64,000 nt of DNA. Source: Eledone cirrhosa (taxonomy: Eukaryota). The position numbers and the translations under genes were made by a program. Where the stretch lies: contig OZ024744.1 in the NCBI GenBank assembly GCA_964016885.1, forward strand, positions 132,060,001 through 132,124,000, in the 5' to 3' direction. Under the pieces are notes generated by a model. It saw nothing but the letters and a program-made list of their open reading frames with translations. It searched no databases and had not been told where the DNA came from. Shown piece by piece: positions 736 through 60,869 of the stretch; position 1 is the first letter of the stretch, and the number at the start of each line of letters is the position of its first letter.

Positions 736-1000
736 AACCCCAACTTAACTTAACCCCAACTTCACTCAACCCCAACTTAACTTAACCCCAACTTCACTCA
801 ACCCCAACTTAACTCAACCCCAACTTAACTTAACCCCAACTTAAATTAACCCCGACTTAAACTTAACCCCGACTTAACTTAACCCCAACTTAACTTAACC
901 CCAACTTAACTTAACCCCAACTTAACTTAATCCCAACTTGACTTAACCCCAACTTAACTCACACCCAACTTAACTTACCCCCAACTTAACTTAACCCCAA
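736..1000 (-). repeat. Inverted 16-mer block, class B
   Basis: (AACCCCAACTTAACTT)n; starts GGGGTT|AACCCC, ends CCCCAAAGTCGGAGTTAAG. Confidence 0.95.
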
Positions 1001-3574
1001 AGTCGGAGTTAAGTTAAGTTGGGGTTAAGTTAAGTTAGGCTTAACTTAAGTTGGGGTTAAGTTAAGTTGGGGGTAAGTTAAGTTGGGGGTAAGTTAAGTT
1101 GGGGTTAAGTTAAGTTGGGGTTAAGATAAGTGGTGGTTATGTTAAGTTGAGGTTAAGTTAAGTTAGGGTTAAATTAAGTTGGGGTTAAGTTAAGTTGGGT
1201 GTAAGTTAAGTTGGGGTTGAGTGAAGTTGGGGTTAAGTTAAGTTGGGGTTAAGTAGAGTTGGGGTTAAGTTAAGTTGGGGTTAAGTTAAGTTGGTGTTAA
1301 GTTGGGGTTAAGTTAAGTTGGGGTTAAGTTGGGGTTAAGTTAAGTGGTGGTTATGTTAAGTTGGGGTTAACTTAAGTTGGGGTTAATTTAAGTTGGGGTT
1401 GAGTGAAGTTGGGGTTAAGTTAAGTTGGGGTTAAGTTAAGTTGGGGTTAACTTAAGTTGGGTTTAAGTTAAGTTGCGGTTAAGTTAATTTGGGGTTAAGT
1501 TAAGTTGGGGTTAAGTTAAGTCGGGGTTAATTTAAGTTGGGGTTGAGTTAAGTTGGGGTTAATTTAAGTTGAGGTTATGTTAAGTTGGGGTTAATTTAAG
1601 TTGGGGTTAAGTTAAGTTGGGGTTAAGTTAAGTTGGGGTTAATTTAAGTTGGGATTAAGTTCAGTTGGGGTTAAATTAAGTTGGGGTTAAGTTAAGCTGG
1701 GGTTAAATTAAGTTGGGGTTAAGTTAAGTTGGGGTTAAGTTAAGTTGGGGTTAAGTTAAGTTAGGGTTAATTTAAGTTGGGGTTATGTTAAGTTGGGGTT
1801 AAGTTAAGTTGGGGTTAAGTCGAGTTGGGGTTAAGTTAAGTTAGGGTTAGTTAAGTTGAGTTTAAGTTAAGTTGGGGTTAATTTAAGTTGGGGTTAAGTT
1901 AAGTTGGGGTTCAGTTAAGTTGGGGTTAAGTTAAGTTGGGGTTAAGTTAAGTTGGTTTAAGTTAAGTTGGGGTTAGGTTAAGTTGGGGATAAGTTAAGTT
2001 GGGGATAAGCTAAGTTGGGGTTAAGTTAAGTTGGGTTTAAGTTAAGTTGGGGTTAAGTTAAGTTAGGCTTAACTTAAGTTGGGGTTAAGTTAAGTTGGGG
2101 GTAAATTAAGTTGGGGGTAAGTTAAGTTGGGGTTAAGTTAAGTTGGGGTTAAGTTAAGTGGTGGTTATGTTAAGTTGGGGTTAAGTTAAGTTGGGGTTAA
2201 ATTAAGTTGGGGTTAAGTTAAGTTCGGTGTAAGTTAAGTTGGGGTTGAGTGAAGTTGGGGTTAAGTTAAGTTGGGGTTAAGTTAAGTTGGTGTTAAGTTG
2301 GGGTTAAGTTAAGTTGGGGTTAAGTTAAGTCGGGGTTAAGTTAAGTTGGGGTTGAGTTAAGTTGGGGTTAATTTAAGTTGAGGTTATGTTAAGTTGGGGT
2401 TAATTTAAGTTGGGGTTAATTTAAGTTGGGGTTAAGTTAAGTTGGGGTTAAGTTGAGGTTAAGTTAAGTTGTGGTTAAGTTAAGTTGGGGCTAAGTTAAG
2501 TTGGGGCTAAGTTAAGTTGGGGCTAAGTTAAGTTGGGGTTAAGTTAAGTTGGGGTTAAGTTAAGTTGGGTTTAATTTAAGTTGGGGTCAACTTAAGTTGG
2601 GGTTAAGTTGAGTTGGGGTTAAATTAAGTTGGGGTTAAGTTAAGTTGTGGTTCAGTTAAGTTGGGGTTAAGTTAAGTTTGGGTTAATTTGGGGTTAAATT
2701 AAGTTGGGGTTAAGTTAAGTTGGGGTTAAGTTAAGTTGGGGTTAAGTTAAGTTGGGGTTAATTTAAGTTGGGGTTAAGTTAAGTCGGGGTTAAGTTAAGT
2801 CGGTGTTAAGTTAAGTTAGGGTTAAGTTAAGTTGGGGTTAAGTTAAGTTGGCTTTAAGTTAAGCTGGGGTTAAGTTAAGTTGGGGTTAAATTAAGTTGGG
2901 GTTAAGTTAAGTTGGGGTTAGGTTAAGTTTGGGTTAGGTTAAGTTGGGGTTAAATTAAGTTGGGGTTAAGTTAAGTTGGGGTTAAGTTAAGTTGGGGTTA
3001 GGTTAAGTTGGGGATAAGTTAAGTTGGGGATAATTTAAGTTGGGGTTAAGTTAAGTTGGGTTTAAGTTAAGCTGGGGTTAAGTTAAGTTGGGGTTAAATT
3101 AAGTTGGGGTTAAGTTAAGTTGGGGTTAAGTTAAGTTAGGGTTAGGTTAAGTTGGGGATTAGTTAAGTTGGGGATAAGTTAAGTTGGGGTTAATTAAGTT
3201 GGGTTTAAGTTAAGTTGTGGTTAAGTTAAGTTGGGGTTAAGTTAAGTTGGGGGTTAAGTTAAGTTGGGGTTAGTTAAGTTTAGTTTAAGTTAAGTTGGGG
3301 TTAATTTAAGTTGGGGTTAAGTTAAGTTGGGGTTCAGTTAAGTTGGGGATAAGTCAAGTTGGGGTTAAGTTAAGTTGGGGTTAAGTTAAGTTGGGGTTAG
3401 GTTAAGTTGGGGATAAGTTAAGTTGGGGATAAGCTAAGTTGGGGTTAAGTTAAGTTGGGTTTAAGTTAAGTTGGGGTTAAGTTAAGTTGGGGTTAAATTA
3501 AGTTGGAGATAAGTTAAGCTGGGGTTAAATTAAGTTGGGGTTAAGTTAAGTTGGGGTTAGGTTAAGTTGGGGTT

Positions 3575-3870
3575 AACCCCAACTTAACTTAACCCCAACT
3601 TAACTTAGCCCCAACTTCACTCAACCCCAACTTAACTTAACCCCAACTTCACTCAACCCCAACTTAACTCAACCCCAACTTAAGTTAACCCCAACTTAAC
3701 TTAACCCTAACTTAACTTAACCCCGACTTAACTTAACCCCGACTTAACTTAACCCCAACTTAACTTAACCCCAACTTAACTTAACCCCAACTTAACTTAA
3801 TCCCAACTTGACTTAACCCCAACTTAACTCACACCCAACTTAACTTACCCCCAACTTAACTTAACCCCAA
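3575..3870 (-). repeat. Inverted 16-mer block, class C
   Basis: C-rich monomers; ends CCCCAAATTCGGAGTTACG. Confidence 0.95.
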
Positions 3871-5771
3871 ATTCGGAGTTACGTTAAGTTGGGGTTAAGT
3901 TAAGTTAGGCTTAACTTAAGTTGGGCTTAAGTTAAGTTGGGGGTAAGTTAAGTTGGGGGTAAGTTAAGTTGGGGTTAATTTAAGTTGGGGTTAAGTTAAG
4001 TGGTGGTTATGTTAAGTTGGGGTTAATTTAAGTTGGGGTTAAATTAAGTTGGGGTTAAGTTAAGTTGGGTGTAAGTTAAGTTGGGGTTGAGTGAAGTTGG
4101 GGTTAAGTTAAGTTGGGGTTAAGTAGAGTTGGGGTTAAGTTAAGTTGGGGTTAAGTTAAGTTGGTGTTAAGTTGGGGTTAAGTTAAGTTGGGGTTAAGTT
4201 GGGGTTAAGTTAAGTGGTGGTTATGTTAAGTTGGGGTTAACTTAAGTTGGGGTTAATTTAAATTGGGGTTAAGTTAACTTTGTGGTTAAGTTAAGTTGGG
4301 GTTAAGTTAAGTTGGGGTTAAGTTAAGTTGGGGTTGAGGGAAGTTGGGGTTAAGTTAAGTTGGGGTTAACTTAAGTTGGGTTTAAGTTAAGTTGCGGTTA
4401 AGTTAAGTTGGGGTTAAGTTAAGTTGGGGTTAAGTTAAGTCGGGGTTAAGTTAAGTTGGGGTTGAGTTAAGTTGGGGTTAATTTAAGTTGAGGTTATGTT
4501 AAGTTGGGGTTAATTTAAGTTGGGGTTAAGTTAAGTTGGGGTTAAGTTAAGTTGGGGTTAATTTAAGTTGGGGTTAAGTTCAGTTGGGGTTAATTTAAGT
4601 TGGGGTTAAGTTAAGTTGGGTTTAAGTTAAGTTGGGGTTAAATTAAGTTGGGGTTAAATTAAGTTGGTGTTAAGTTAAGTTGGGGTTAGGTTAAGTTGGG
4701 GATAAGTTAAGTTGGGGATAAGCTAAGTTGGGGTTAATTTAAGTTGGGTTTAAGTTAAGTTGGGGTTAAGTTAAGTCGGGGTTATGTTAAGTCGGTGTTA
4801 AGTTAAGTTAGGGTTAAGTTAAGTTGGGGTTAAGTTAAGTTGGGGTTGAGTTAAGTTGGGGTTGAGTTAAATTGGGGTTGAGTTAAGTTGGGGTTAAGTT
4901 AAGTTGGGGTTAAGTTAAGTTGGGGTTAAGTTAAGTTGGGGTTGAGTTAAGTTGGGTTTACTTCAAGTTGGGGCTAAGTTAAGTTGGGGCTGATTTAAGT
5001 TGGGTGTACGTTAAGTTGGGGTTGACTGAAGTTGGGGTTAAGTTAAGTTGGGGTTAAGTTAAGTTAGGGTTAATTTAAGTTGGGGTTATGTTAAGTTGGG
5101 GTTAAGTTAAGTTGGGGTTAAGTAGAGTTGGGGTTAATTTAAGTTGGGGTTAAGTTAAGTTGGTGTTAAGTTGGGGTTAATTTAAGTGGTGGTTATGTTA
5201 AGTTGGGGTTAAGTTAAGTTGGGGTTAATTTAAATTGGGGTTAAGTTAACTTTGTGGTTAAGTTAAGTTGGAGTTAAGTTAAGTTGGAGTTAAGTTAAGT
5301 TGGGGTTGAGTGAAGTTGGGGTTAAGTTAAGTTGGGGTTAACTTAAGTTGGGTTTGAGTTAAGTTGCGGTTAAGTTAAGTTGGGGTTAAGTTAAGTTGGG
5401 GTTAAGTTAAGTCGGGGTTAATTTAAGTTGGGGTTAAGTTAAGTTGGGGTTAATTTAAGTTGGGGTTAAGTTAAGTTTAGGTTAAGTTAAGTTGGGGTTA
5501 AATTAAGTTGGGGTTAAGTTAAGTTGGGGTTAAGTTAAGTTGGGGTTAGGTTAAGTTGGGGATAAGTTAAGTTGGGGATAAGTTAAGTTGGGGTTAAGTT
5601 AAGTTGGGTTTAAGTTAAGTTGGGGTTAAGTTAAGTTGGGGTTTAATTAAGTTGGGGTTGAGTTAAGTTGGGGTTGACTTAAGTTGGGCTTAAGTTAAGT
5701 TGGGGTTAAGTTAAGATGTGGTTAAGTTAAGTTGGGGTTAATTTAAGTTGGGGTTAAATTAAGTTGGGGTT

Positions 5772-6034
5772 AACCCCACTTAAACTAACCCCAACTTAAC
5801 TTAACCCCAACTTAACATAACCCCAACTTAATTTAACCCCAGCTTAACTTAACCCCAACTTAATTTAACCCCAACTTAACTTAACCCCGACTTAACTTAA
5901 CCCCGACTTAACTTAACCCCAACTTAACTTAACCCCAACTTAACTTAACCCCAACTTAACTTAATCCCAACTTGACTTAACCCCAACTTAACTCACACCC
6001 AACTTAACTTACCCCCAACTTAACTTAACCCCAA
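5772..6034 (-). repeat. Inverted 16-mer block, hybrid (flipped class A flank + class C end)
   Basis: Starts AACCCCACTTAAACTAACCCC; ends CCCCAAATTCGGAGTTACG. Confidence 0.93.
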
Positions 6035-9000
6035 ATTCGGAGTTACGTTAAGTTGGGGTTAAGTTAAGTTAGGCTTAACTTAAGTTGGGCTTAAGTTAAG
6101 TTGGGGGTAAGTTAAGTTGGGGGTAAGTTAAGTTGGAGTTAATTTAAGTTGGGGTTAAGTTAAGTGGTGGTTATTTTAAGTTGGGGTTAATTTAAGTTGG
6201 GGTTAAATTAAGTTGGGGTTAAGTTAAGTTGGGTGTAAGTTAAGTTGGCGTTGAGTGAAGTTGGGGTTAAGTTAAGTTGGGGTTAAGTAGAGTTGGGGTT
6301 AAGTTAAGTTGGGGTTAAGTTAAGTTGGTGTTAAGTTGGGGTTAAGTTAAGTTGGGGTTAAGTTGGGGTTAAGTTAAGTGGTGGTTATGTTAAGTTGGGG
6401 TTAACTTAAGTTGGGGTTAATTTAAATTGGGGTTAAGTTAACTTTGTGGTTAAGTTAAGTTGGGGTTAAGTTAAGTTGGGGTTAAGTTAAGTTGGGGTTG
6501 AGGGAAGTTGGGGTTAAGTTAAGTTGGGGTTAACTTAAGTTGGGTTTAAGTTAAGTTGCGGTTAAGTTAAGTTGGGGTTAAGTTAAGTTGGGGTTAAGTT
6601 AAGTCGGGGTTAAGTTAAGTTGGGGTTGAGTTAAGTTGGGGTTAATTTAAGTTGAGGTTATGTTAAGTTGGGGTTAATTTAAGTTGGGGTTAAGTTAAGT
6701 TGGGGTTAAGTTAAGTTGGGGTTAATTTAAGTTGGGGTTAAGTTCAGTTGGGGTTAATTTAAGTTGGGGTTAAGTTAAGTTGGGTTTAAGTTAAGTTGGG
6801 GTTAAATTAAGTTGGGGTTAAATTAAGTTGGGGTTAAGTTAAGTTGGGGTTGAGTTAAGTTGGGTTTACTTCAAGTTGGGGCTAAGTTAAGTTGGGGCTG
6901 AGTTAAGTTGGGTGTACGTTAAGTTGGGGTTGACTGAAGTTGGGGTTAAGTTAAGTTGGGGTTAATTTAAGTTAGGGTTAATTTAAGTTGGGGTTATGTT
7001 AAGTTGGGGTTAAGTTAAGTTGGGGTTAAGTAGAGTTGGGGTTAATTTAAGTTGGGGTTAAGTTAAGTTGGTGTTAAGTTGGGGTTAATTTAAGTGGTGG
7101 TTAAGTTAACTTTGTGGTTAAGTTAAGTTGGAGTTAAGTTAAGTTGGAGTTAAGTTAAGTTGGGGTTAATTTAAATTGGGGTTAAGTTAACTTTGTGGTT
7201 AAGTTAAGTTGGAGTTAAGTTAAGTTGGAGTTAAGTTAAGTTGGGGTTGAGTGAAGTTGGGGTTAAGTTAAGTTGGGGTTAACTTAAGTTGGGTTTGAGT
7301 TAAGTTGCGGTTAAGTTAAGTTGGGGTTAAGTTAAGTTGGGGTTAAGTTAAGTCGGGGTTAATTTAAGTTGGGGTTAAGTTAAGTTGGGGTTAATTTAAG
7401 TTGGGGTTAAGTTAAGTTTAGGTTAAGTTAAGTTGGGGTTAAATTAAGTTGGGGTTAAGTTAAGTTGGGGTTAAGTTAAGTTGGGGTTAGGTTAAGTTGG
7501 GGATAAGTTAAGTTGGGGATAAGTTAAGTTGGGGTTAAGTTAAGTTGGGTTTAAGTTAAGTTGGGGTTAAGTTAAGTTGGGGTTTAATTAAGTTGGGGTT
7601 GAGTTAAGTTGGGGTTGACTTAAGTTGGGCTTAAGTTAAGTTGGGGTTAAGTTAAGATGTGGTTAAGTTAAGTTGGGGTTAATTTAAGTTGGGGTTAAAT
7701 TAAGTTGGGGTTAAGTTAAGTTGGGGGTAAGGTAAGTTGGTGGTAAGTTAAGTTGGGGGTAAGTTAAGATGGGGCTAAGTTAAGTTGGGGTTAAGTTAAT
7801 TTGGGGTTAAGTTAAGTTAGGGTTAAGTTAAGTTGGGGTTGACTTAAGTTGGGGTTAAGTTAAGTTGGGGTTATGTTAAGTTGGGTTTAAGTTAAGTTGG
7901 GGTTAAGTTAAGTTGGGGTTAAGTTAAGTTGCGGTTAAGTTAAGTTGGGGTTAAGTTAAGTTGGGGTTAAGTTAAGTTGGGGTTAAGTTAAGTTGGGGTT
8001 AATTTAAGTTGGGGTTAAATTAAGTTGGGGTTAATTTAAGTTGGGGGTTAAGATAAGTTGGGGTTAAGTTAAGTTGGGGTTAAATTAAGTTGGGGTTAAG
8101 TTAAGTTGGGGTTAATTTAAGTTGGGGTTAAGTTAAGTTGGGGTTGAGTTAAGTTGGGGGTAAGTTAAGTTGGGGGTAAGTTAAGTTGGGTGTAAGTTAA
8201 GATGGGGTTAAGTTAAGTTGGGGTTAAGTTATTTTGGGGTTAAGTTAAGTTGGAGGTAAGTTAAGTTGGTGATAAGTTAAGTTGGGGGTAAGTTAAGTTG
8301 GGGTTAAGTTAAGTTGGGTTAAGTTGGGGTTAAGTTAAGTTAGGGTTAAGTTAAGTTGGGGTTGAGTTAAGTTGGGGTTAAGTTAAGAGGTGGTTATGTT
8401 CAGTTGGGGTTAAGTTAAGTTGGGGTTAAGTTAAGTTGGGGTTAAGTTAAGTTGGGGTTAAGATAAGTTGGGGTTAAGTTAAGTTGGGGTTGAGTTAAGT
8501 TGGGGTTGAGTTAATTTGGGGTTAAGTTAAGTTGGGGTTAACTTAATTTGGGTTTAATTTAAGTTGGGGTTAAGTTAAGTTGGGGTTAAATTAAGTTGGG
8601 ATTAAGTTAAGTTGGGTGTACGTTAAGTTGGGGTTGACTGAAGTTGGGGTTAAGTTAAGTTGGGGTTAAGTAGAGTTGGGGTTAATTTAAGTTGGGGTTA
8701 AGTTAAGTTGGTGTTAAGTTGGGGTTAAGTTAAGTTGGGGTTAAGTTGGGGTTAAGTTAAGTGGTGGTTATGTTAAGTTGGGGTTAAGTTAAGTTGGGGT
8801 TAATTTAAATTGGGGTTAAGTTAACTTTGTGGTTAAGTTAAGTTGGAGTTAAGTTAAGTTGGGGTTAAGTTAAGTTGGGGTTGAGTGAAGTTGGGGTTAA
8901 TTTAAGTTGGGGTTCAGTTAAGTTGGGGTTAAGTTAAGTTGGGGTTGAGTTAAGTTGGGGTTAATTTAAGTTGAGGTTATTTTAAGTTGGGGTTAAGTTA

Positions 9001-10860
9001 AGTTGGGGTTAAGTTAAGTTGGGGTTAAGTTAAGTTGGGGTTAAGTTAAGTTGGGTTTAAGTTAAGTTGGGGTTAAATTAAGTTGGGGTTAAATTAAAGT
9101 GGGGTTAAGTTAAGTTGGGGGTAAGTTAAGTTGGGGGCAAGTTAAGTTGGTGTTAAGTTAAGTTGGGGTTAAGTTAAGTTGGGGTTAAGTTAAGTTGGGT
9201 TTAAGTTAAGTTGGGACTAAGTTAAGTTAGGGCTAAGTTCAGTTGGGGTAAAGTTAAGTTGGGGCTAAGTTAAGTTGGGTATAAGTTGAGTTGGGGTTAA
9301 GTTAAGTTGGGGTTAAGTTAAGTTGGGGTTAAATTAAGTTGGGGTTAATTAAGTTGGGGTTAAGTTAAGTTGGGGTTAAGTTAAGTTGGGGTTAATTTAA
9401 GTTGGGGTTGTGTTAATTTGGGGTTAAGTTAAGTTGGGGTTATATTAAGTTGGGGTTAAGTTAAGTTGGGTTTAAGTTAAGTTGGGGTTAAGTTAAGTTG
9501 GGGTTAAGTTGAGTTAGGGTTAATTTAAGTTGGGGTTATGTTAAGTTGGGGTTAAGTTAAGTTGGGGTTAAGTAGAGTTGGGGTTAATTTAAGTTGGGGT
9601 TAAGTTAAGTTGGTGTTAAGTTGGGGTTAAGTTAAGTTGGGGTTAAGTTGGGGTTAAGTTGAGTGGTGGTTATGTTAAGTTGGGGTTAAGTTAAGTTGGG
9701 GTTAATTTAAATTGGGGTTAAGTTAACTTTGTGGTTAAGTTAAGTTGGAGTTAAGTTAAGTTGGGGTTAAGTTAAGTTGGGGTTGAGTTAAGTTGGGGTT
9801 AAATTAAGTTGGGGTTAAATTAAGGTGGGGTTAAGTTAAGTTGGGGGTAAGTTAAGTTGGGGGCAAGTTAAGTTGGTGTTAAGTTAAGTTGGGGTTAAGT
9901 TAAGTTGGGGTTAAGTTAAGTTGGGTTTAAGTTAAGTTGGGACTACGTTAAGTTAGGGCTAAGTTAAGTTGGGGTTAATTAAGTTGGGGCTAAGTTAAGT
10001 TGGGTCTAAGTTGAGTTGGGGTTAAGTTAAGTTGGGGTTAAGTTAAGTTGGGGTTAAATTAAGTTGGGGTTAATTAAGTTGGGGTTAAGTTAAGTTGGGG
10101 TTAAGTTAAGTTGGGGTTAATTTAAGTTGGGGGTAAGTTAAGTTGGTGGTAAGTTAAGTTGGGGTTAAGTTAAGTTGGGGTTAATTTAAATTGGGGTTAA
10201 TTTAACTTTGTGGTTAAGTTAAGTTGGGGTTTATTTAAGTTGGGTTTAAGTTAAGTTGGGGTTGAGTTAAGTTGGGGTTGAGTGAAGTTGGGGTTAAGTT
10301 AAGTCGGGGTTAATTTAAGTTGGGGTTGAGTTAAGTCGGGGTTAATTCAAGTTGGGGCTAAGTTAATTTGTGGTTAAGTTAAGTTGGGGTTAAGTTAAGT
10401 TGGGGTTAAGTTAAGTTGGGGGTAAGTTAAGTTGGGGGCAAGTTAAGTTGGGGTTAAGTTAAGTTGCGGTTAATTTAAGTTGGGGTTAAGTTAAGTTGGG
10501 TTTAAGTTAAGTTGGGGTTCAGTTAAGTTGGGGTTTAGTTAAGTTGGGGTTAAGTTAAGTGGGGGTTGAGTTAAGTTGGGGTTAAGCTAAGTTGGGGTTA
10601 AGTTAAATTGAGGTTAAGTTAACTTGGGTTTGAGTTAAGTTGGGGTTAAGTTAAGTTGGTGTTAAGTTCAGTTCAGGTTAAGTTAACTTGGGGTTAAGTT
10701 AAGTTGGGGTTGAGTTAAGTTGGGGTTGAGTTAAGTTGGGGTTAAGTTAAGTTGGGGTTAACTTAAGTTGGGGTTAAGTTAAGTTGGGGTTAATTTAAGT
10801 TGGGGTTCAGTTAAATTGAGGTTAAGATAACTTGGGTTTGCGTTAAGATGGGGTTAAGTT

Positions 10861-12480
10861 AGGTTTGTCGAAAACCTTATATAATCATTTTTATTTAGGT
10901 TCTTCGAAACACCTTATATAATCAATTTTTTTAGGTTTTTCGAAAAACCTTATATAATCAATTTTTTAATACTTTTAGAAATATTTATATCTGATTTCAA
11001 ATATTGATTTTATTAGGTTTTTGGAATAATCAATTTTTTTTACGTTTTTCGAAAAATGTTATATAATCAATTTTTTTTAGGTTTTTCGAATCAATTCAAT
11101 TTTTATAATCAAATATTTTTAGGTTTTTAGAAAAACCTTATATAATCAAATTTTTTTAGGTTTTTCGAAAAACCTTATATAATTAATTTTTTTATACTTT
11201 TAGAAATATTTATATCTGATTTCAAATATTGGATTTTTTAGGTTTTTCGATAATCAATTTTTTTTAGATTTTTCGAAAAATCTTATATAATCAATTTTTT
11301 TACGTTTTTAGAAAGACCTTATATAATCAATTTTTTTATACTTTTAGAAATATTTATATCTGATTTCAAATATTGATTTTTTTTTTAGGTTTTTCGAAAT
11401 ACCTTATATAATCAATTTTTTTTAGGTTTTTCAAATTACTTTATATAATCAATTTTTTTTATCTGATTTCAAATATTGATTTTTTTAGCTTTTTCGACAA
11501 AATCTTATATAATCAATTTTTTTTAGGTTTTTCGAAAAAGAATGAATTTGAGTTCATAGTCGAAATATATACTTCTGCATTAATCTTTTTACGTTTTTTT
11601 GATTTTTTTTAAAAAAACGTAAAAAATTAATGCTTTTACAAATCTTTTGAAATATTTACTTTCTAGTTTCAAATTTTGCAGATTAAATTTTTCTCGAAAA
11701 ACCTAAAAAATCAGTTGTCGAAATCAGAAGTTAATATTTCGAAAAACGCAATTTGAAAAACTCATATTAATTTTTTTTCGAAAACATTATATAATCAATT
11801 TTTTAGAAATATTTATATCTGATTTCAAATATTGATTTTTTTAGGTTTTTCGAAAACCCTATATAATCAATTTTTTTGTACTTTTAGAAATATCTATATC
11901 TGATTTCATGTATTGATTTTTTTATATTTTTCGAAAAAGCTTAGATAATCAATTTTTTTAGGTCTTTCGAAAACCTTATATAATCAATTTTTTTTTAGGT
12001 TTTTCGAAAAAACCTTATATAATCAATTTTTTTTAGGTTTTTCAAATATTGATTTTTTTAGCTTTTTCGACAAAATCTTATATAATCAATTTTTTTTAGG
12101 TTTTTCGAAAAAGAATGAATTTGAGTTCATAGTCGAAATATATACTTCTGCATTAATCTTTTTACGTTTTTTTGATTTTTTTTAAAAAAAACGTAAAAAA
12201 TTAATGCTTTTACAAATCTTTTGAAATATTTACTTTCTAGTTTCAAATTTTGCAGATTAAATTTTTCTCGAAAAACCTAAAAAATCAGTTGTCGAAATCA
12301 GAAGTTAATATTTCGTAAAACGCAATTTGAAAAAACTCATATTAATTTTTTTTCGAAAACTTATTATATAATCAATTTTTTTATACTTTTAGAAATTTTT
12401 ATATCTGATTTCAAATATTGATTTTTTTAGGTTTTTCGAAAACCCTATATGATCAATTTTTTTTAGGTTTTTCAAAAAAG
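10861..12480. repeat. AT-rich island 1: ~35-bp palindromic minisatellite plus two ~230-bp cores
   Basis: Repeats of TTTTTTTAGGTTTTTCGAAAAACCTTATATAATCAA and GAAATATTTATATCTGATTTCAAATATTGA; cores starting GAATGAATTTGAGTTC at 11540 and 12113. Confidence 0.95.
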
Positions 12481-50900: not shown

Positions 50901-51476
50901 TTTTACGTTTTTTTGAAAAAATTAATGCTTTTACAAATCTTTTGAAATATTTACTTTCTAGTTTCAAATTTTGCAGATTAAATTTTTCTCGAAAAACCTA
51001 AAAAATCAGTTGTCGAAATCAGAAGTTAATATTTCGTAAAACGCAATTTGAAAAACTCATATTAATTTTTTTTCGAAAACTTATTATATAATCAATTTTT
51101 TTATACTTTTAGAAATATTTATATCTGATTTCAAATATTGATTTTTTTAGGTTTTTCGAAAACCCTATATAATCAATTTTTTTGTACTTTTAGAAATATC
51201 TATATCTGATTTCATGTATTGATTTTTTTATATTTTTCGAAAAAGCTTAGATAATCAATTTTTTTAGGTCTTTCGAAAACCTTATATAATCAATTTTTTT
51301 TTAGGTTTTTCGAAAAAACCTTATATAATCAATTTTTTTTAGGTTTTTTCGAAAAATCTTATATAATCAATTTTTTTACGTTTTTAGAAATATTTATATC
51401 TGATTTCAAATATTGATTTTTTTTAGATTTTTCGAAATACCTTATATAATCAATTTTTTTTAGGTTTTTCAAATTA
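47917..51476. repeat. AT-rich island 4 (long form, ~3.56 kb, four cores)
   Basis: Same left junction; cores at 48596, 49178, 49953, 50854; different right junction. Confidence 0.95.
50713..50776. other. Perfect 30-bp inverted repeat with 4-nt loop (hairpin/cruciform-capable)
   Basis: ATCAATTTTTTTTAGGTTTTTCAAATTACC-ATAA-GGTAATTTGAAAAACCTAAAAAAAATTGAT. Confidence 0.92.
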
Positions 51477-51669
51477 CCCCGACTTAACCCCGACTTAACT
51501 TAACCCCAACTTAACTTAACCCCAACTTAACTTAACCCCAACTTAACTTAACCCCAACTTGACTTAACCCCAACATAACTCACACCCAACTTAACTTACC
51601 CCCAACTTAACTTAACCCCAACTTGACTTAACCCCAACTTAACTTAACTCCAACTTAACTTAACGCCAA
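51477..51669 (-). repeat. Inverted 16-mer block fused directly to AT island 4
   Basis: TTTTTCAAATTA|CCCCGACTTAACCCC...; ends GCCAAAGTCGGAGTTAAG; lacks the GGGGTTAACCCC start. Confidence 0.93.
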
Positions 51670-53673
51670 AGTCGGAGTTAAGTTAAGTTGGGGTTAAGCT
51701 AAGTTGGGGGTAAGTTAAGTTGGGGTTAAGTTAGGGTTAAGTTAAGTTGGGTATAAGTTAAGTTGGGGTTGAGTGAAGTTGGGGTTAAGTTAAGTTGGGG
51801 TTAAGTTAAGTTAGGGTTAATTTAAGTTGGGGTTAAGTTAAGTTGGGGTTAACTTAAGTTGGGGTTAAGTTAAGTTGGGGCTAATTTAGGTTGGGGTTAA
51901 GTTAAGTTGGGGTTAAGATAAGTTGGGGTTAAGTTAAATTGAGATTAAGTTAACTTGGGTTTGAGTTAAGTTGGGGATAAGTTAAGTGGTGGTTATGTTA
52001 AGTTGGGGTTAAGTTAAGTTGGGGTTAAATTAAGTTGGGGTTAAGTTAAGTTGGGTGTAAGTTAAGTTTGGGTTGAGTGAAGTTGGGGTTAAGTTAAGTT
52101 GGGGTTAAGTAGAGTTGGGGTTAAGTTAAGTTGGGGTTAAGTTAAGTTGGTGTTAAGTTGGGGTTAAGTTAAGTTGGGGTTAAGTTAAGTTTGGGTTGAG
52201 TGAAGTTGGGGTTAAGTTAAGTTGGGGTTAAATTAAGTTGGGGTTAACTTAAGTTGGGTTTAAGTTAAGTTGCGGTTAAGTTAAGTTGGGGTTAAGTTAA
52301 GTTGGGGTTAAGTTAAGTTGGGGTTAAGTTAAGTTGGGGTTGAGTTAAGTTGGGGTTATTTTAAGTTGAGGTTATGTTAAGTTGGGGTTAATTTAAGTTG
52401 GGGTTAAGTTAAGTTGGGGTTAATTTAAGTTGGGGTTAAGTTCAGTTGGGGTTAATTTAAGTTGGGGTTAAGTTAAGTTGGGGTTAATTTAAGTTGGGTT
52501 TAAGTTAAGTTGGGGCTAAGTTAAGTTGGGTCTAATTTGAGTTGGGGTTAAGTTAAGTTGGGGTTAAGTTAAGTTGAGGTTAAATTAAGTTGGGGTTAAT
52601 TAAGTTGGGGTTAAGTTAAGTTGGGGTTAAGTTAAGTTGAGGTTAAGTTAACTTGGGGTTAAGTTAAGTTGGGGTTAAGTTAAGTTGGGGTTGAGTTAAG
52701 TTGGGGTTGAGTTAAGTTGGGGTTAAGTTAAGTTGGGGTTAAGTTAAGTTGGGGTTAAGTTAAGTTGGGGTTAATTTAAGTTCGGCTTAAGTTAAGTTCG
52801 GGGTAAGCTAAGTTGGGGTTAAGTTAAATCGGGTCTAAGTTAAGTGGGAGGTTAAGTTAAGTTGGGGTTGAGTTAAGTTGTGGTTAAGTTAACTTGGGGT
52901 TAAGTTAAGTTAAGTTTGAGTTAAGTTGGGGTTAAGTTGGGGTTAAGTTAAGTTGGGGTTAAGTTACGTTGGGGTTAAGTTAAGTTGGGGTTAAGTTGAG
53001 GTTAAGTTAAGTTGTGGTTAAGTTAAGTTGGGGCTAAGTTAAGTTGGGGATAAGTTAAGTTGGGGTTAAGTTAAGTTGGGGTTAATTTAAGTTGGGGTTA
53101 GGTTAAGTTGGGGATAAGTTAAGTTGGGGATAAGTTAAGTTGGGGTTAAGTTAAGTTGGGTTTAAGTTAAGCTGGGGTTAAGTTAAGTTGGGGTTAAATT
53201 AAGTTGGGGTTAAGTTAAGTTTGGGTTAGGTTAAGTTGGGGATAAGTTAAGTTGGGGATAAGTTAAGTTGGGGTTAAGTTAAGTTGGGTTTAATTTAAGT
53301 TGGGGTTAAGTTAAGTTGGGGTTAAGTTAAGTTGGGGTTAAGTTAAGTTGCGGTTAGTTAAGTTGAGTTTAAGTTAAGTTGGGGTTAATTTAAGTTGGGG
53401 TTAAGTTAAGTTGGGGTTCAGTTAAGTTGGGGTTAAGTCAAGTTGGGGTTAAGTTAAGTTGGGGTTAAGTTAAGTTGGGGTTAGGTTAAGTTGGGGATAA
53501 TTTAAGTTGGGGATAAGCTAAGTTGGGGTTAAGTTAAGTTGGGTTTAAGTTAAGTTGGGGTTAAGTTAAGTTGGGGTTAAATTAAGTTGGGGTTAAGTTA
53601 AGCTGGGGTTAAATTAAGTTGGGGTTATGTTAAGTTGGGGTTAAGTTAAGTTGGGGTTAGTTTAAGTGGGGTT

Positions 53674-54018
53674 AACCCCAACTTAACTTAACCCCAACTT
53701 AACTTAACCCCAACTTCACTCAACCCCAACTTAAATTAACCCCAACTTCACTCAACCCCAACTTAACTCAACCCCAACTTAAATTAACCCCAACTTAACT
53801 TAACCCTGACTTAACTTAACCCCGACTTAACTTAACCCCGACTTAACTTAACCCCAACTTAACTTAAACCCCAACTTAACTTAACCCCAACTTAACTTAA
53901 CCCCAACTTGACTTAACCCCAACTTAACTCACACCCAACTTAACTTACCCCCAACTTAACTTAACCACAACTTGACGTAAACCCAACTTAACTTAACCCC
54001 AACTTAACTTAACCCCAA
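53674..54018 (-). repeat. Inverted 16-mer block, class A
   Basis: As 13186. Confidence 0.95.
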
Positions 54019-54645
54019 AGTCGGAGTTCAGTTAAGTTGGGGTTCAGTTAAGTTAGGCTTAACTTAAGTTGGGGTTAAGTTAAGTTGGGGGTAAGTTAAG
54101 TTGGGGGTAAGTTAAGTTGGGGTTAAGTTAAGTTGGGGTTAAGTTGGGGTTAAGTTAAGTTAGGGTTAAGTTAAGTTGGGGTTGAGTTAAGTTGGGGTTA
54201 AGTTAAGTGGTGGTTATGTTAAGTTGGGGTTAAGTTAAGTTGGGGTTAAATTAAGTGGGGTTAACTTAAGTTGGGTGTAAGTTAAGTTGGGGTTGAGTGA
54301 AGTTGGGGTTAAGTTAAGTTGGGGTTAAGTTAAGTTAGGGTTAATTTAAGTTGGGGTTATGTTAAGTTGGTGTTAAGTTAAGTTGGGGTTAAGTCGAGTT
54401 GGGGTTAAGTTAAGTTGGGGTTAAGTTAAATTGGTGTTAAGTTAAGTTGGGGTTAAGTTAAGTTGGGGTTAGTTAAGTTGAGTTTAAGTTAAGTTGGGGT
54501 TAATTTAAGTTGGGGTTAAGTTAAGTTGGGGTTGAGTTAAGTTGTGGTTAAGTTAAGTTGGGGTTAGGTTAAGTTGGGGTTAAGTTAAGCTGGGGTTAAA
54601 TTAAGTTGGGGTTAAGTTAAGTTGGGGTTAGGTTAAGTTGGGGTT

Positions 54646-54915
54646 AACCCCAACTTCACTCAACCCCAACTTAACTTAACCCCAACTTCACTCAACCCCA
54701 ACTTAACTCAACCCCAACTTAACTTAACCCCAACTTAACTTAACCCTAACTTAACTTAACCCCGACTTAAACTTAACCCCGACTTAACTTAACCCCAACT
54801 AAACTTAACCCCAACTTAATTTAACCCCAACTTAACTTAATCCCAACTTGACTTAACCCCAACTTAACTCACACCCAACTTAACTTACCCCCAACTTAAC
54901 TTAACTTAACCCCAA
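54646..54915 (-). repeat. Inverted 16-mer block, class B
   Basis: As 14190, shorter. Confidence 0.95.
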
Positions 54916-57683
54916 AGTCGGAGTTAAGTTAAGTTGGGGTTAAGTTAAGTTAGGCTTAACTTAAGTTGGGGTTAAGTTAAGTTGGGGGTAAGTTAAGTTG
55001 GGGGTAAGTTAAGTTGGGGTTAAGTTAAGTTGGGGTTAAGATAAGTGGTGGTTATGTTAAGTTGAGGTTAAGTTAAGTTAGGGTTAAATTAAGTTGGGGT
55101 TAAGTTAAGTTGGGTGTAAGTTAAGTTGGGGTTGAGTGAAGTTGGGGTTAAGTTAAGTTGGGGTTAAGTAGAGTTGGGGTTAAGTTAAGTTGGGGTTAAG
55201 TTAAGTTGGTGTTAAGTTGGGGTTAAGTTAAGTTGGGGTTAAGTTGGGGTTAAGTTAAGTGGTGGTTATGTTAAGTTGGGGTTAACTTAAGTTGGGGTTA
55301 ATTTAAATTGGGGTTAAGTTAACTTTGTGGTTAAGTTAAGTTGGGGTTAAGTTAAGTTGGGGTTAAATTAAGTTGGGGTTGAGTGAAGTTGGGGTTAAGT
55401 TAAGTTGGGGTTAAGTTAAGTTGGGGTTAACTTAAGTTGGGTTTAAGTTAAGTTGCGGTTAAGTTAAGTTGGGGTTAAGTTAAGTTGGGGTTAATTTAAG
55501 TCGGGGTTAATTTAAGTTGGGGTTGAGTTAAGTTGGGGTTAATTTAAGTTGTGGTTATGTTAAGTTGGGGTTAATTTAAGTTGGGGTTAAGTTAAGTTGG
55601 GGTTAAGTTAAGTTGGGGTTAATTTAAGTTGGGATTAAGTTCAGTTGGGGTTAAATTAAGTTGGGGTTAAGTTAAGCTGGGGTTAAATTAAGTTGGGGTT
55701 AAGTTAAGTTGGGGTTAAGTTAAGTTGGGGTTAAGTTAAGTTAGGGTTAATTTAAGTTGGGGTTATGTTAAGTTGGGGTTAAGTTAAGTTGGGGTTAAGT
55801 CGAGTTGGGGTTAAGTTAAGTTGGGGTTAGTTAAGTTGAGTTTAAGTTAAGTTGGGGTTAATTTAAGTTGGGGTTAAGTTAAGTTGGGGTTCAGTTAAGT
55901 TGGGGTTAAGTTAAGTTGGGGTTAAGTTAAGTTGGTTTAAGTTAAGTTGGGGTTAGGTTAAGTTGGGGATAAGTTAAGTTGGGGATAAGGTAAGTTGGGG
56001 TTAAGTTAAGTTGGGTTTAAGTTAAGTTGGGGTTAAGTTAAGTTAGGCTTAACTTAAGTTGGGGTTAAGTTAAGTTGGGGGTAAATTAAGTTGGGGGTTA
56101 GTTAAGTTGGGGTTAAGTTAAGTTGGGGTTAAGTTAAGTGGTGGTTATGTTAAGTTGGGGTTAAGTTAAGTTGGGGTTAAATTAAGTTGGGGTTAAGTTA
56201 TGTTGGGTGTGAGTTAAGTTGGGGTTGAGTGAAGTTGGGGTTAAGTTAAGTTGGGGTTAAGTTAAGTTAGGGTTAATTTAAGTTGGGGTTATGTTAAGTT
56301 GGGGTTAAGTTAAGTTGGGGTTAAGTAGAGTTGGGGTTAAGTTAAGTTGGGGTTAAGTTAAGTTGGTGTTAAGTTGGGGTTAAGTTAAGTTGGGGTTAAG
56401 TTAAGTCGGAGTTAAGTTAAGTTGGGGTTGAGTTAAGTTGGGGTTAATTTAAGTTGAGGTTATGTTAAGTTGGGGTTAATTTAAGTTGGGGTTAATTTAA
56501 GTTGGGGTTAAGTTAAGTTGGGGTTAAGTTGAGGTTAAGTTAAGTTGTGGTTAAGTTAAGTTGGGGCTAAGTTAAGTTGGGGCTAAGTTAAGTTGGGGCT
56601 AAGTTAAGTTGGGGTTAAGTTAAGTTGGGGTTAAGTTAAGTTGGGTTTAATTTAAGTTGGGGTCAACTTAAGTTGGGGTTAAGTTGAGTTGGGGTTAAAT
56701 TAAGTTGGGGTTAATTTAAGTTGGGGCTAAGTTAAGTTGGGGCTGAGTTAAGTTGGGGTTAAGTTAAGTTGGGGTTAAGTTAAGTTGGGGTTAAGTTAAT
56801 TTTGGGTTAAGTTAAGTTGTGGTTCAGTTAAGTTGGGGTTAAGTTAAGTTTGGGTTATTTTGGGGTTAAATTAAGTTGGGGTTAAGTTAAGTTGGGGTTA
56901 AGTTAAGTTGGGGTTAAGTTAAGTTGGGGTTAATTTAAGTTGGGGTTAATTTAAGTCGGGGTTAAGTTAAGTCGGTGTTAAGTTAAGTTAGGGTTAAGTT
57001 AAGTTGGGGTTAAGTTAAGTTGGCTTTAAGTTAAGCTGGGGTTAAGTTAAGTTGGGGTTAAATTAAGTTGGGGTTAAGTTAAGTTGGGGTTAGGTTAAGT
57101 TTGGGTTAGGTTAAGTTGGGGTTAAATTAAGTTGGGGTTAAGTTAAGTTGGGGTTAAGTTAAGTTGGGGTTAGGTTAAGTTGGGGATAAGTTAAGTTGGG
57201 GATAATTTAAGTTGGGGTTAAGTTAAGTTGGGTTTAAGTTAAGCTGGGGTTAAGTTAAGTTGGGGTTAAATTAAGTTGGGGTTAAGTTAAGTTGGGGTTA
57301 AGTTAAGTTTGGGTTAGGTTAAGTTGGGGATTAGTTAAGTTGGGGATAAGTTAAGTTGGGGTTAAGTTAAGTTGGGTTTAAGTTAAGTTGTGGTTAAGTT
57401 AAGTTGGGGTTAAGTTAAGTTGGGGGTTAAGTTAAGTTGGGGTTAGTTAAGTTTAGTTTAAGTTAAGTTGGGGTTAATTTAAGTTGGGGTTAAGTTAAGT
57501 TGGGGTTAAGTTAAGTTGGGGTTAGGTTAAGTTGGGGATAAGCTAAGTTGGGGTTAAGTTAAGTTGGGTTTAAGTTAAGTTGGGGTTAAGTTAAGTTGGG
57601 GTTAAATTAAGTTGGAGATAAGTTAAGCTGGGGTTAAATTAAGTTGGGGTTAAGTTAAGTTGGGGTTAGGTTAAGTTGGGGTT

Positions 57684-57979
57684 AACCCCAACTTAACTTA
57701 ACCCCAACTTAACTTAGCCCCAACTTCACTCAACCCCAACTTAACTTAACCCCAACTTCACTCAACCCCAACTTAACTCAACCCCAACTTAAGTTAACCC
57801 CAACTTAACTTAACCCTAACTTAACTTAACCCCGACTTAACTTAACCCCGACTTAACTTAACCCCAACTTAACTTAACCCCAACTTAACTTAACCCCAAC
57901 TTAACTTAATCCCAACTTGACTTAACCCCAACTTAACTCACACCCAACTTAACTTACCCCCAACTTAACTTCACCCCAA
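57684..57979 (-). repeat. Inverted 16-mer block, class C
   Basis: Ends AAAATCGGAGTTACG. Confidence 0.95.
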
Positions 57980-60573
57980 AATCGGAGTTACGTTAAGTTG
58001 GGGTTAAGTTAAGTTAGGCTTAACTTAAGTTGGGCTTAAGTTAAGTTGGGGGTAAGTTAAGTTGGGGGTAAGTTAAGTTGGGGTTAATTTAAGTTGGGGT
58101 TAAGTTAAGTGGTGGTTATGTTAAGTTGGGGTTAATTTAAGTTGGGGTTAAATTAAGTTGGGGTTAAGTTAAGTTGGGTGTAAGTTAAGTTGGGGTTGAG
58201 TGAAGTTGGGGTTAAGTTAAGTTGGGGTTAAGTAGAGTTGGGGTTAAGTTAAGTTGGGGTTAAGTTAAGTTGGTGTTAAGTTGGGGTTAAGTTGGGGTTA
58301 AGTTAAGTGGTGGTTATGTTAAGTTGGGGTTAACTTAAGTTGGGGTTAATTTAAATTGGGGTTAAGTTAACTTTGTGGTTAAGTTAAGTTGGGGTTAAGT
58401 TAAGTTGGGGTTAAGTTAAGTTGGGGTTGAGGGAAGTTGGGGTTAAGTTAAGTTGGGGTTAACTTAAGTTGGGTTTAAGTTAAGTTGCGGTTAAGTTAAG
58501 TTGGGGTTAAGTTAAGTTGGGGTTAAGTTAAGTCGGGGTTAAGTTAAGTTGGGGTTGAGTTAAGTTGGGGTTAATTTAAGTTGAGGTTATGTTAAGTTGG
58601 GGTTAATTTAAGTTGGGGTTAAGTTAAGTTGGGGTTAAGTTAAGTTGGGGTTAATTTATGTTGGGGTTAAGTTCAGTTGGGGTTAATTTAAGTTGGGGTT
58701 AAGTTAAGTTGGGTTTAAGTTAAGTTGGGGTTAAATTAAGTTGGGGTTAAATTAAGTTGGGGTTAAGTTAAGTTGGGGTTAGGTTAAGTTGGGGATAAGT
58801 TAAGTTGGGGATAAGCTAAGTTGGGGTTAAGTTAAGTTGGGTTTAAGTTAAGTTGGGGTTAAGTTAAGTCGGGGTTATGTTAAGTCGGTGTTAAGTTAAG
58901 TTAGGGTTAAGTTAAGTTGGGGTTAAGTTAAGTTGGGGTTGAGTTAAGTTGGGGTTGAGTTAAATTGGGGTTGAGTTAAGTTGGGGTTAAGTTAAGTTGG
59001 GGTTAAGTTAAGTGGTGGTTATGTTAAGTTGGGGTTAAGTTAAGTTGGGGTTAAATTAAGTTGGGGTTAAGTTATGTTGGGTGTAAGTTAAGTTGGGGTT
59101 GAGTGAAGTTGGGGTTAAGTTAAGTTGGGGTTAAGTTAAGTTAGGGTTAATTTAAGTTGGGGTTATGTTAAGTTGGGGTTAAGTTAAGTTGGGGTTAAGT
59201 AGAGTTGGGGTTAAGTTAAGTTGGGGTTAAGTTAAGTTGGTGTTAAGTTGGGGTTAAGTTAAGTTGGGGTTAAGTTAAGTCGGAGTTAAGTTAAGTTGGG
59301 GTTGAGTTAAGTTGGGGTTAATTTAAGTTGAGGTTATGTTAAGTTGGGGTTAATTTAAGTTGGGGTTAATTTAAGTTGGGGTTAAGTTAAGTTGGGGTTA
59401 AGTTGAGGTTAAGTTAAGTTGTGGTTAAGTTAAGTTGGGGCTAAGTTAAGTTGGGGCTAAGTTAAGTTGGGGCTAAGTTAAGTTGGGGTTAAGTTAAGTT
59501 GGGGTTAAGTTAAGTTGGGTTTAATTTAAGTTGGGGTCAACTTAAGTTGGGGTTAAGTTGAGTTGGGGTTAAATTAAGTTGGGGTTAATTTAAGTTGGGG
59601 CTGAGTTAAGTTGGGGCTGAGTTAAGTTGGGGTTAAGTTAAGTTGGGGTTAAGTTAAGTTGGGGTTAAGTTAATTTTGGGTTAAGTTAAGTTGTGGTTCA
59701 GTTAAGTTGGGGTTAAGTTAAGTTTGGGTTATTTTGGGGTTAAATTAAGTTGGGGTTAAGTTAAGTTGGGGTTAAGTTAAGTTGGGGTTAAGTTAAGTTG
59801 GGGTTAATTTAAGTTGGGGTTAATTTAAGTCGGGGTTAAGTTAAGTCGGTGTTAAGTTAAGTTAGGGTTAAGTTAAGTTGGGGTTAAGTTAAGTTGGCTT
59901 TAAGTTAAGCTGGGGTTAAGTTAAGTTGGGGTTAAATTAAGTTGGGGTTAAGTTAAGTTGGGGTTAGGTTAAGTTTGGGTTAGGTTAAGTTGGGGTTAAA
60001 TTAAGTTGGGGTTAAGTTAAGTTGGGGTTAAGTTAAGTTGGGGTTAGGTTAAGTTGGGGATAAGTTAAGTTGGGGATAATTTAAGTTGGGGTTAAGTTAA
60101 GTTGGGTTTAAGTTAAGCTGGGGTTAAGTTAAGTTGGGGTTAAATTAAGTTGGGGTTAAGTTAAGTTGGGGTTAAGTTAAGTTTGGGTTAGGTTAAGTTG
60201 GGGATTAGTTAAGTTGGGGATAAGTTAAGTTGGGGTTAAGTTAAGTTGGGTTTAAGTTAAGTTGTGGTTAAGTTAAGTTGGGGTTAAGTTAAGTTGGGGG
60301 TTAAGTTAAGTTGGGGTTAGTTAAGTTTAGTTTAAGTTAAGTTGGGGTTAATTTAAGTTGGGGTTAAGTTAAGTTGGGGTTAAGTTAAGTTGGGGTTAGG
60401 TTAAGTTGGGGATAAGTTAAGTTGGGGATAAGCTAAGTTGGGGTTAAGTTAAGTTGGGTTTAAGTTAAGTTGGGGTTAAGTTAAGTTGGGGTTAAATTAA
60501 GTTGGAGATAAGTTAAGCTGGGGTTAAATTAAGTTGGGGTTAAGTTAAGTTGGGGTTAGGTTAAGTTGGGGTT

Positions 60574-60869
60574 AACCCCAACTTAACTTAACCCCAACTT
60601 AACTTAGCCCCAACTTCACTCAACCCCAACTTAACTTAACCCCAACTTCACTCAACCCCAACTTAACTCAACCCCAACTTAAGTTAACCCCAACTTAACT
60701 TAACCCTAACTTAACTTAACCCCGACTTAACTTAACCCCGACTTAACTTAACCCCAACTTAACTTAACCCCAACTTAACTTAACCCCAACTTAACTTAAT
60801 CCCAACTTGACTTAACCCCAACTTAACTCACACCCAACTTAACTTACCCCCAACTTAACTTAACCCCAA
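60574..60869 (-). repeat. Inverted 16-mer block, class C (duplicate of 57684)
   Basis: Offset 2890 from 57684. Confidence 0.95.

What the first reader, a model, noticed from the sequence alone, without database searches (positions are those of the whole stretch)
736..60869. Eighteen ~0.3 kb inversion cassettes with the same two hairpin junctions
Seen: 17 of 18 begin at a spacer-free palindrome centre GGGGTT|AACCCC, using the self-complementary TTAA of the monomer. All 18 end at CC-AAA(G/T/A)TC-GGAGTT, itself a stem with a ~6-nt loop. Each cassette can therefore pair with both flanks, giving imperfect palindromes with arms of ~200-345 bp every 1-7 kb. The shared right junction implies one ancestral inversion that was amplified and diverged into classes A/B/C. 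Established: long spacer-free palindromes are usually unstable (cruciform cleavage, fork stalling). Inference: their retention suggests either a structural role for cruciforms or that they drive the array's amplification.
Basis: partly seen in the sequence, partly recalled or inferred. Interest (0 to 1): 0.7.

Follow-up and report, generated by a model that had tools for sequence, protein, structure and literature searches.

The report
Inversion cassettes multiplied inside satellite array
A multi-megabase satellite DNA array carries hundreds of copies of one short back-to-front segment that likely arose once by a replication strand switch and was then likely copied as a passenger, while occasionally swapping sequence with its mirror-image neighbours.

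Summary
The window is part of an ~8.3-Mb array of a 16-bp satellite. All 18 inverted cassettes are there (17 with the palindromic left junction, 18 with the shared right junction). They belong to one family of at least 741 copies over ~5 Mb, and both junction types are bridged in public-run contigs. The arms are only 88-90% alike, no more than random array pieces, with perfect stems of 7-14 bp in the window. Signs of function or drive are missing: centres mutate at the background rate, ~1.5 Mb of the array has no inversion in 11 of 11 samples, and units lacking the cassette or its centre were amplified too. The cassettes are not inert: 2 of 274 copied 103-118 bp into their own flank as an exact mirror, and about six further inverted rearrangements touch a cassette. 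A second, independent family (29 copies) still mirrors its flank at a 64-bp offset, the geometry of ODIRA-type template switching. Best reading: one TTAA-primed strand switch, amplified as a passenger. Closest known: Tribolium macro-dyad satellites. The scan noted a similar layout in another satellite of this genome (e1-9568473).

The parts
1..63394 (+). 16-bp satellite (monomer GGGGTTAAGTTAAGTT, ~5% divergent monomers), part of an array at G000:C28:~127.0-135.33 Mb; local higher-order unit of ~12.3-12.4 kb (AT block + cassettes C, A, B)
736..1000 (-). inverted cassette, class A
3575..3870 (-). inverted cassette, class B (rare ATT right-junction allele)
5772..6034 (-). chimeric cassette: first 110 bp are an exact mirror of the class-C left flank, the rest is class B; it marks the joint of a ~2.2-kb tandem duplication and is a newly formed palindromic junction
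13186..13530 (-). inverted cassette, class C (7-bp perfect stem)
14190..14502 (-). inverted cassette, class A
18098..18361 (-). inverted cassette, class B
25563..25907 (-). inverted cassette, class C
26567..26895 (-). inverted cassette, class A
30539..30802 (-). inverted cassette, class B
37957..38301 (-). inverted cassette, class C
38961..39289 (-). inverted cassette, class A
42026..42321 (-). inverted cassette, class B
45217..45512 (-). inverted cassette, class B
51474..51669 (-). truncated cassette without palindrome centre, abutting the AT-rich block (32 such in the contig)
53674..54018 (-). inverted cassette, class C
54646..54915 (-). inverted cassette, class A variant (11-bp perfect stem)
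57684..57979 (-). inverted cassette, class B
60574..60869 (-). inverted cassette, class B
2033..2073 (+). cassette-less unit: left-flank monomers joined directly to right-flank monomers, likely a clean deletion of the cassette (also at 15600, 28041, 40387, 56013)
10855..12474 (+). block of a second, AT-rich (19% GC) 36-38/81-bp satellite with fixed boundaries (also 23229-24846, 35670-37288, 47911-51471, 63395-64000); serves as non-palindromic control junction

Best explanation
The cassettes are descendants of one short inversion in a 16-bp satellite that likely formed by a polymerase template switch at the monomer's self-complementary TTAA and was then likely multiplied as a passenger of ordinary tandem duplication of kilobase-sized units. 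Step 1 (inferred; geometry seen directly only in the second family): a nascent strand ending in TTAA anneals to a TTAA on the other parental strand, copies 0.2-0.4 kb backwards and switches back. Because the array is periodic, a switch a few monomers away still prints a junction that looks spacer-free. Step 2 (shared descent shown, mechanism inferred): unequal exchange or replication-based duplication copies cassette, flanks and AT blocks together into higher-order units, while whole monomers are gained and lost. Step 3 (inferred): the cassettes persist because the arms are ~11% divergent with mismatches 7-30 bp from most centres, which would keep breakage low. Step 4 (products shown): at a low rate a cassette recombines with the opposite-strand array, giving mirror conversions, new junctions, 2-kb inverted duplications, domain switches and clean losses.
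For: One right-junction family in 239 of 239 switches (the 6 odd ones are the same junction read backwards) and shared cassette and flank variant strings from 124.6 to 134.9 Mb. 5 of 7 independent junction types overlap a TTAA against 7.8% expected, P about 5e-5. Second family, 29 copies at 128.57-129.60 Mb, mirrors its left flank for 99 bp exactly at a 64-bp offset in 1 of 3 copies read, with 1-2 changes in the others; ODIRA prefers 40-80 bp (PMC10766183, passages). Centre substitution rate 6/1284 against 50/8430, P=0.70. Repeated 64-mers 0.69 in 22 inversion-free and 0.67 in 14 cassette-rich 10-kb samples, P=1.0. 60 of 219 right-flank markers lack an adjacent cassette; 32 of 204 cassettes lack the centre. 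Mirror conversions of 103 and 118 bp against a median of 47 and 99th percentile of 66 among 274 cassettes, with siblings keeping the old flank. In yeast, 94% and 86% arm identity lower rearrangement 15- and 58-fold (PMC10164571, passages).
Against: The main family no longer mirrors either flank and no forward source for it was found in the fetched DNA, so its birth by fold-back is inferred from the second family; its right junction has only a 1-bp microhomology, which also fits end-joining after a duplication across an older inversion boundary. 283 of 299 centres are intact across 5 Mb, and the rate test has low power (6-15 events); a cruder Hamming test showed a 2.5-fold deficit near the centre that vanished once monomer slips were aligned. 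The family reached at least 741 copies, far more than the second family's 29. All this is one assembly.
Confidence: 0.7

Rival explanations
1. The cassettes are kept by selection because their hairpins or cruciforms organise (peri)centromeric chromatin, as proposed for Tribolium macro-dyads.
For: Multi-megabase satellite array near the end of a 136.5-Mb scaffold. 283 of 299 centres intact. 100-nt centre windows fold at -38 to -46 kcal/mol against -10.8 for plain array. The same idea is put forward, untested, in PMC13081366 and PMC12581902 (passages).
Against: No slowed substitution at centre or right junction; arms not homogenised; centre-less and cassette-less units amplified; 127.05-128.5 Mb without any inversion in 11 of 11 samples; every fully listed junction search lies on one scaffold (with 25, 7, 70), unlike Tribolium where the sites are on all or many chromosomes.
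Confidence: 0.12
2. The cassettes drive the amplification: fork stalling or cruciform cleavage at them triggers the duplications that expand the array, so they raise their own copy number.
For: One duplication in the window is jointed at a new palindrome with an inverted templated insert; a duplication across a centre made a new 54-bp cassette; 2-kb inverted duplication and a domain switch start inside cassettes. Cassette-bearing DNA makes up about 5 of 8.3 Mb.
Against: Such events number about 8 among roughly 330 right junctions read; inversion-free samples are as locally duplicated as cassette-rich ones; about 1.5 Mb expanded with none.
Confidence: 0.12
3. The cassettes are fold-back chimeras of library preparation or mis-assembly.
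For: Contig ends next to scaffold gaps show error-like decayed sequence; long reads were not available for checking.
Against: Junctions are fixed to the base and carry heritable subfamily variants across hundreds of copies; arms are not self-mirrors as a fold-back read would be; contigs of run X3 bridge the right junction with 0 differences (34 and 33 letters a side, depth 950) and a centre (52 and 53 letters, 10 differences, depth 164).
Confidence: 0.02
4. The cassettes are a mobile fold-back element or MITE inserted independently many times.
For: Many similar short inverted units dispersed through the array.
Against: Copies share both flanking variant strings, so they moved with their flanks; they consist only of satellite monomers; no terminal repeats or target duplications were seen; none outside the array in the fully listed searches.
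Confidence: 0.02

Closest known systems
Tribolium madens / T. freemani satellite macro-dyad symmetries with conserved inversion sites (PMC13081366, PMC12581902; passages read)
   Same: Thousands of near-identical orientation switches inside multi-megabase satellite regions, no foreign DNA at the switch, a second satellite interleaved in blocks with fixed transition zones, hairpin role proposed but untested.
   Different: There, two kilobase-long subarrays of similar size, monomers of 110 bp or more, loops of 9-27 bp in T. freemani, on many chromosomes. Here, a 0.13-0.5-kb inverted insert bounded by two junctions in a one-directional 16-bp array, a zero-spacer centre, and apparently one locus. 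Those authors state that macro-dyads were documented only in Tribolium.
ODIRA / inverted triplication by leading-to-lagging template switch (PMC10766183, passages; Aspergillus centromeric TRP/INV, 10.1101/2025.01.14.632981, abstract)
   Same: Inverted middle segment between directly oriented flanks, junctions at short inverted repeats; the second family shows a 64-bp offset within the preferred 40-80 bp.
   Different: Those are single, recent or transient events; here one event was fixed and multiplied hundreds of times. The main family has lost, or never had, mirror identity with its flanks. No replication origin is known here.
Quasi-palindrome template switching with arm homogenisation (PMC8604942, abstract)
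   Same: One arm rewritten as an exact mirror of the other (103 and 118 bp).
   Different: Described for short inverted repeats in unique DNA; here tracts of about 100 bp between satellite arms of 200-300 bp.
Inverted Alu quasi-palindromes in yeast (PMC10164571, passages); palindromic AT-rich repeats of human chromosome 22 (recalled)
   Same: Arm length of about 300 bp, little or no spacer, imperfect identity.
   Different: Arms here are 88-90% alike and 37% GC with a G/C clamp at the centre, and occur by the hundred in tandem.
Cichlid centroids (PMC13652916, passages)
   Same: Satellite blocks of alternating orientation in putative centromeres.
   Different: Two ~15-kb non-satellite elements per centromere, not hundreds of small satellite-only inversions.

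Membership tests
Tribolium-type satellite macro-dyad | Orientation switches with highly conserved junction sequence in many copies | tested here: met
   239 of 239 right junctions one family; 283 of 299 centres intact
Tribolium-type satellite macro-dyad | Two kilobase-long subarrays of roughly equal length | tested here: not met
   Reverse segments 133-524 bp (median 297), 56 kb against 517 kb forward in the contig
Tribolium-type satellite macro-dyad | Second satellite interleaved with fixed transition zones | tested here: met
   AT-rich blocks, left boundary shared in 51 of 51
Tribolium-type satellite macro-dyad | Present on many chromosomes | tested here: inconclusive
   Fully listed or fully counted searches are all on C28 (with 25, 7, 70); 1192 of 1292 matches and 12 of 112 were not listed
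ODIRA-type inverted triplication | Inverted segment is a mirror copy of the adjoining flank | tested here: not met
   Main family: arm identity equals background. Met only by the second family outside the window
ODIRA-type inverted triplication | Junctions at short inverted repeats / self-complementary microhomology | tested here: met
   Left junction at TTAA; 5 of 7 independent junction types at TTAA; the main right junction has only 1 bp
ODIRA-type inverted triplication | Repeat spacing of 40-80 bp at the switch | tested here: inconclusive
   64 bp (48 in one copy) in the second family; unreadable in the main family
ODIRA-type inverted triplication | Replication origin inside the amplified segment; switch without a double-strand break | not testable with these tools
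   No origin or intermediate data
Functional centromeric satellite | CENP-A occupancy / methylation dip | not testable with these tools
   No chromatin data
Functional centromeric satellite | Multi-megabase satellite array with higher-order repeats | tested here: met
   ~127.0-135.33 Mb by sampling; 12.4-kb unit in the window
Fold-back transposon / MITE | Independent insertions with different flanks, terminal inverted repeats and target-site duplication | tested here: not met
   Shared flanks, satellite-only content
Sequence under purifying selection | Fewer substitutions at the junction cores than in neighbouring monomers | tested here: not met
   Centre 6/1284 vs 50/8430, P=0.70; wider windows P=0.14-0.63; right junction 12 observed vs 11.4 expected; low power

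The most novel reading that the evidence does not exclude
The cassettes are self-seeding inversion nuclei that a centromeric satellite keeps: they extrude hairpins often enough to mark chromatin or to trigger the duplications that build the array, so that dense palindromic punctuation is a convergent centromere design shared by this animal and flour beetles despite unrelated sequence.
Probability: 0.15. Interest if true: 0.78.

Novelty: new variant of a known kind. Interest (0 to 1): 0.47.

Why it matters
Whether conserved inversion points in satellite arrays are functional or hitch-hiking is open; the Tribolium papers read the conservation as a hint of function. This array holds its own controls: sub-arrays with and without cassettes, units that lost the centre or the whole cassette, non-palindromic junctions copied alongside, and a second family that still shows how such an inversion is born. 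On sequence alone conservation is explained by shared descent. The 16-bp monomer variants also record rare arm-to-flank template switches base by base, which gives a direct handle on how often diverged palindromes pair in a germ line. One CENP-A and one S1 map would separate function from passenger.

Tried and rejected
Arms as fold-back copies of their present flanks: rejected for the main family. Conservation of the centre: an ungapped test suggested it (12 observed vs 30.7 expected within 14 bp) but it disappeared with monomer-aware alignment, so I treat it as a slip artefact. Forward source of the main cassette: not found in fetched DNA; the two clear non-cassette hits were the mirror conversion at 132.002 Mb and a fused cassette. 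Domain boundaries at 131.987 and 132.794 Mb: scaffold gaps, so the orientation of that contig against its neighbours means nothing. Rfam on 10800-14700: 0 matches. No RNA holder listed. Run X4 (organism B) holds monomer words and AT-block pieces but has zero depth over the right junction and no listed piece across a centre; contigs cannot show absence. In one search the pieces over the window's own junctions (X2 record 12, 0 differences, 40 and 25 letters a side; X1/X2 records over 14473-14538) fall short of 31 letters on one side and are not counted as bridges. RAD runs X5-X7 were not used as support, because many reads end at TTAA and ligation could mimic the junction. X1-X3 are one sample and may be the source of the assembly. 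Paper searches: monomer words, 18 unrelated hits by listing; 'inverted monomers' with four other terms, 0; some searches gave the papers cited and no report of this array; supplements were not read. Telomere-motif searches: (TTAGG)10 0 matches, (TTAGGG)7 47,044 matches, so an animal outside the TTAGG insects is likely; no finer identification was tried.
Full report
Observation. The window is a tandem array of the 16-bp monomer GGGGTTAAGTTAAGTT interrupted by five blocks of an unrelated AT-rich repeat. The palindrome GGGGTTAACCCC occurs 17 times and the right-junction motif 18 times, at the places given. An orientation map that does not use these motifs finds exactly 18 reverse segments of 191-348 bp, 897-7546 bp apart. 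Classes A, B and C are recovered; 51474 lacks the centre and 5772 is a chimera. Three to four copies of a ~12.4-kb unit account for much of the window.

Extent. The window is G000:C28:132,060,001-132,124,000 on a 136.5-Mb scaffold of a 3.0-Gb genome. Sampling places the array from about 127.0 to 135.33 Mb, with an island at 124.60-124.69 Mb. In 1.04 Mb read continuously there are 206 forward-to-reverse and 239 reverse-to-forward switches. All 239 belong to one junction family; the six that look different are the same junction read backwards, with the same flank variants. A genome-wide pattern for the centre gives 648 forward and 644 reverse matches, which with the strand split means at least 741 distinct centres. 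Cassettes from 130.25 to 134.9 Mb share variant monomers inside and on both sides, so both junctions descend from one event.

Not an artefact. Contigs of run X3 bridge the right junction of locus L104 with no difference (34 and 33 letters a side, depth 950) and bridge a centre (52 and 53 letters, 10 differences, depth 164). Pieces over the window's own junctions exist but are a few letters short of the bridging rule. X1-X3 are one sample, possibly the assembly's, so they test the technology, not the population.

How palindromic. Arm identity to either flank is 0.865-0.902, the same as to random in-phase forward pieces. The symmetry comes from the monomer, not from copying of the present flank. 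Perfect stems are 7-14 bp in the window and mostly 7, 11, 14 or 27 bp over 299 centres. Predicted hairpins are stable (-228 to -302 kcal/mol for cassette plus flank against -41 for plain array), which shows capacity, not occurrence. In yeast, 94% and 86% identity lower rearrangement 15- and 58-fold, and a mismatch near the centre lowers recombination (PMC10164571, passages).

Function or drive. With monomer-aware alignment along a minimum spanning tree of 153 distinct centre contexts, the central 12 bp change at 6/1284 against 50/8430 for the same positions in other monomers (P=0.70; 107 of 152 edges used; P=0.45 with all). A cruder test had suggested conservation. The right junction shows no deficit. 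The non-palindromic AT-block boundary is shared in 51 of 51 copies. In the gap-free contig 32 of 204 cassettes have lost the centre, and 60 of 219 right-flank markers have no adjacent cassette, 40 of them one exact joined form, likely a clean deletion, five in the window. Eleven of 11 ten-kilobase samples from 127.05-128.51 Mb hold no inversion, and local duplication is equal in 22 inversion-free and 14 cassette-rich samples. Power is limited and no chromatin data exist, so a role is not excluded.

The cassettes are active at a low rate. At C28:132,001,585 the right flank has become an exact mirror of its own cassette for 103 bp, nearly in register, while sibling copies keep the old flank. At 131,156,609 the left flank mirrors the cassette for 118 bp, two monomers off register. 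Among 274 cassettes the longest mirror tract has a median of 47 bp. At window 5772 an ordinary forward string, found four more times without a junction, is joined to a 110-bp mirror of the class-C left flank and then to the right half of a class-B cassette, at the joint of a ~2.2-kb duplication whose copies have since diverged. Further cases are an inverted capture at 132,608,445, a 54-bp cassette made by duplication across a centre at 130,418,251, a 2-kb inverted duplication at 132,857-132,861 kb, a domain switch at 133,355,377 and a second-TTAA junction 3 kb from a cassette at 131,964,579: about eight events among roughly 330 right junctions.

How it was born. A second, unrelated cassette family has 29 exact-junction copies at 128.57-129.60 Mb. 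Both of its junctions lie on TTAA, and it still mirrors its left flank at a 64-bp offset (99 bp exact in L173; one or two changes in L175 and L178). This is the geometry of a leading-to-lagging template switch, for which 40-80 bp is preferred in yeast (PMC10766183, passages). Of seven independent junction types, five overlap a TTAA against 7.8% expected (P about 5e-5). A switch a whole number of monomers away prints a junction that looks spacer-free, so the missing spacer needs no special explanation. For the main family the mirror is gone and no source was found; its origin by the same route is inference, and a duplication across an older inversion boundary, as seen in miniature at 130,418,251, is an alternative first step.

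Known relatives. Tribolium macro-dyads have thousands of conserved inversion sites and an interleaved second satellite, with function proposed but untested (PMC13081366, PMC12581902; passages). This array works like them but fails the test of long symmetric subarrays. It works like ODIRA products and quasi-palindrome correction (PMC8604942, abstract) without being shown a member. Nine paper searches found no report of this array. An unreviewed note of this scan describes amplified fold-back cassettes in another satellite of the same genome; I did not check it.

Verdict. Real, larger than reported, single origin; most likely a template-switch inversion amplified as a passenger (0.7), with low-rate recombination against its flanks shown in the sequence. 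New variant of a known kind; interest 0.47.

Noticed in passing
G000:C28:128.57-129.60 Mb (L173, L175, L178): Second, independent inversion-cassette family, 29 exact-junction copies, both junctions at TTAA, still mirroring its left flank at a 64-bp offset.
   Followed up: yes
window 10855-12474 and like blocks; C28:132.306-132.347 Mb: AT-rich (18-19% GC) 36-38/81-bp satellite interleaved in blocks of 0.7-41 kb with fixed boundaries; each standard block holds an imperfect ~180-bp inverted repeat (74%). Pieces also occur in organism B.
   Followed up: partly
C28:131,985,500-131,987,343 and 132,793,743-132,795,100: Contig ends beside 200-N gaps carry decayed, error-like sequence, including a 16-bp repeat that looks like the monomer with G read as A; likely base-calling decay.
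   Followed up: no
C28:124.60-124.69 Mb (L002-L012): Island of the same array with main-family cassettes in opposite orientation, 2.3 Mb from the main array and ending at a gap; may be mis-scaffolded or an old translocated piece.
   Followed up: partly
L001, L158: A related-looking, longer-period G-rich satellite flanks the island and the right end of the array.
   Followed up: no
runs X5-X7 laid on window 12300-14700 and L104: 69-93% of laid RAD reads run on into unlike AT-rich DNA: dispersed short runs of the monomer, or ligation chimeras at TTAA.
   Followed up: no
C28:124,693,064-124,720,000: A stop-free stretch of 957 codons in non-satellite DNA next to the island, possibly a transposable element.
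   Followed up: no
whole array: The monomer has a GGGG run every 16 bp on one strand (G4Hunter-like score 1.125), so quadruplex or i-motif formation is possible, and each cassette swaps the G-rich strand.
   Followed up: no
C28:132,059,094; 132,352,971 class: A 524-bp fused cassette (C joined to A) and a 137-bp shortened class show that cassettes change length by whole monomers.
   Followed up: partly
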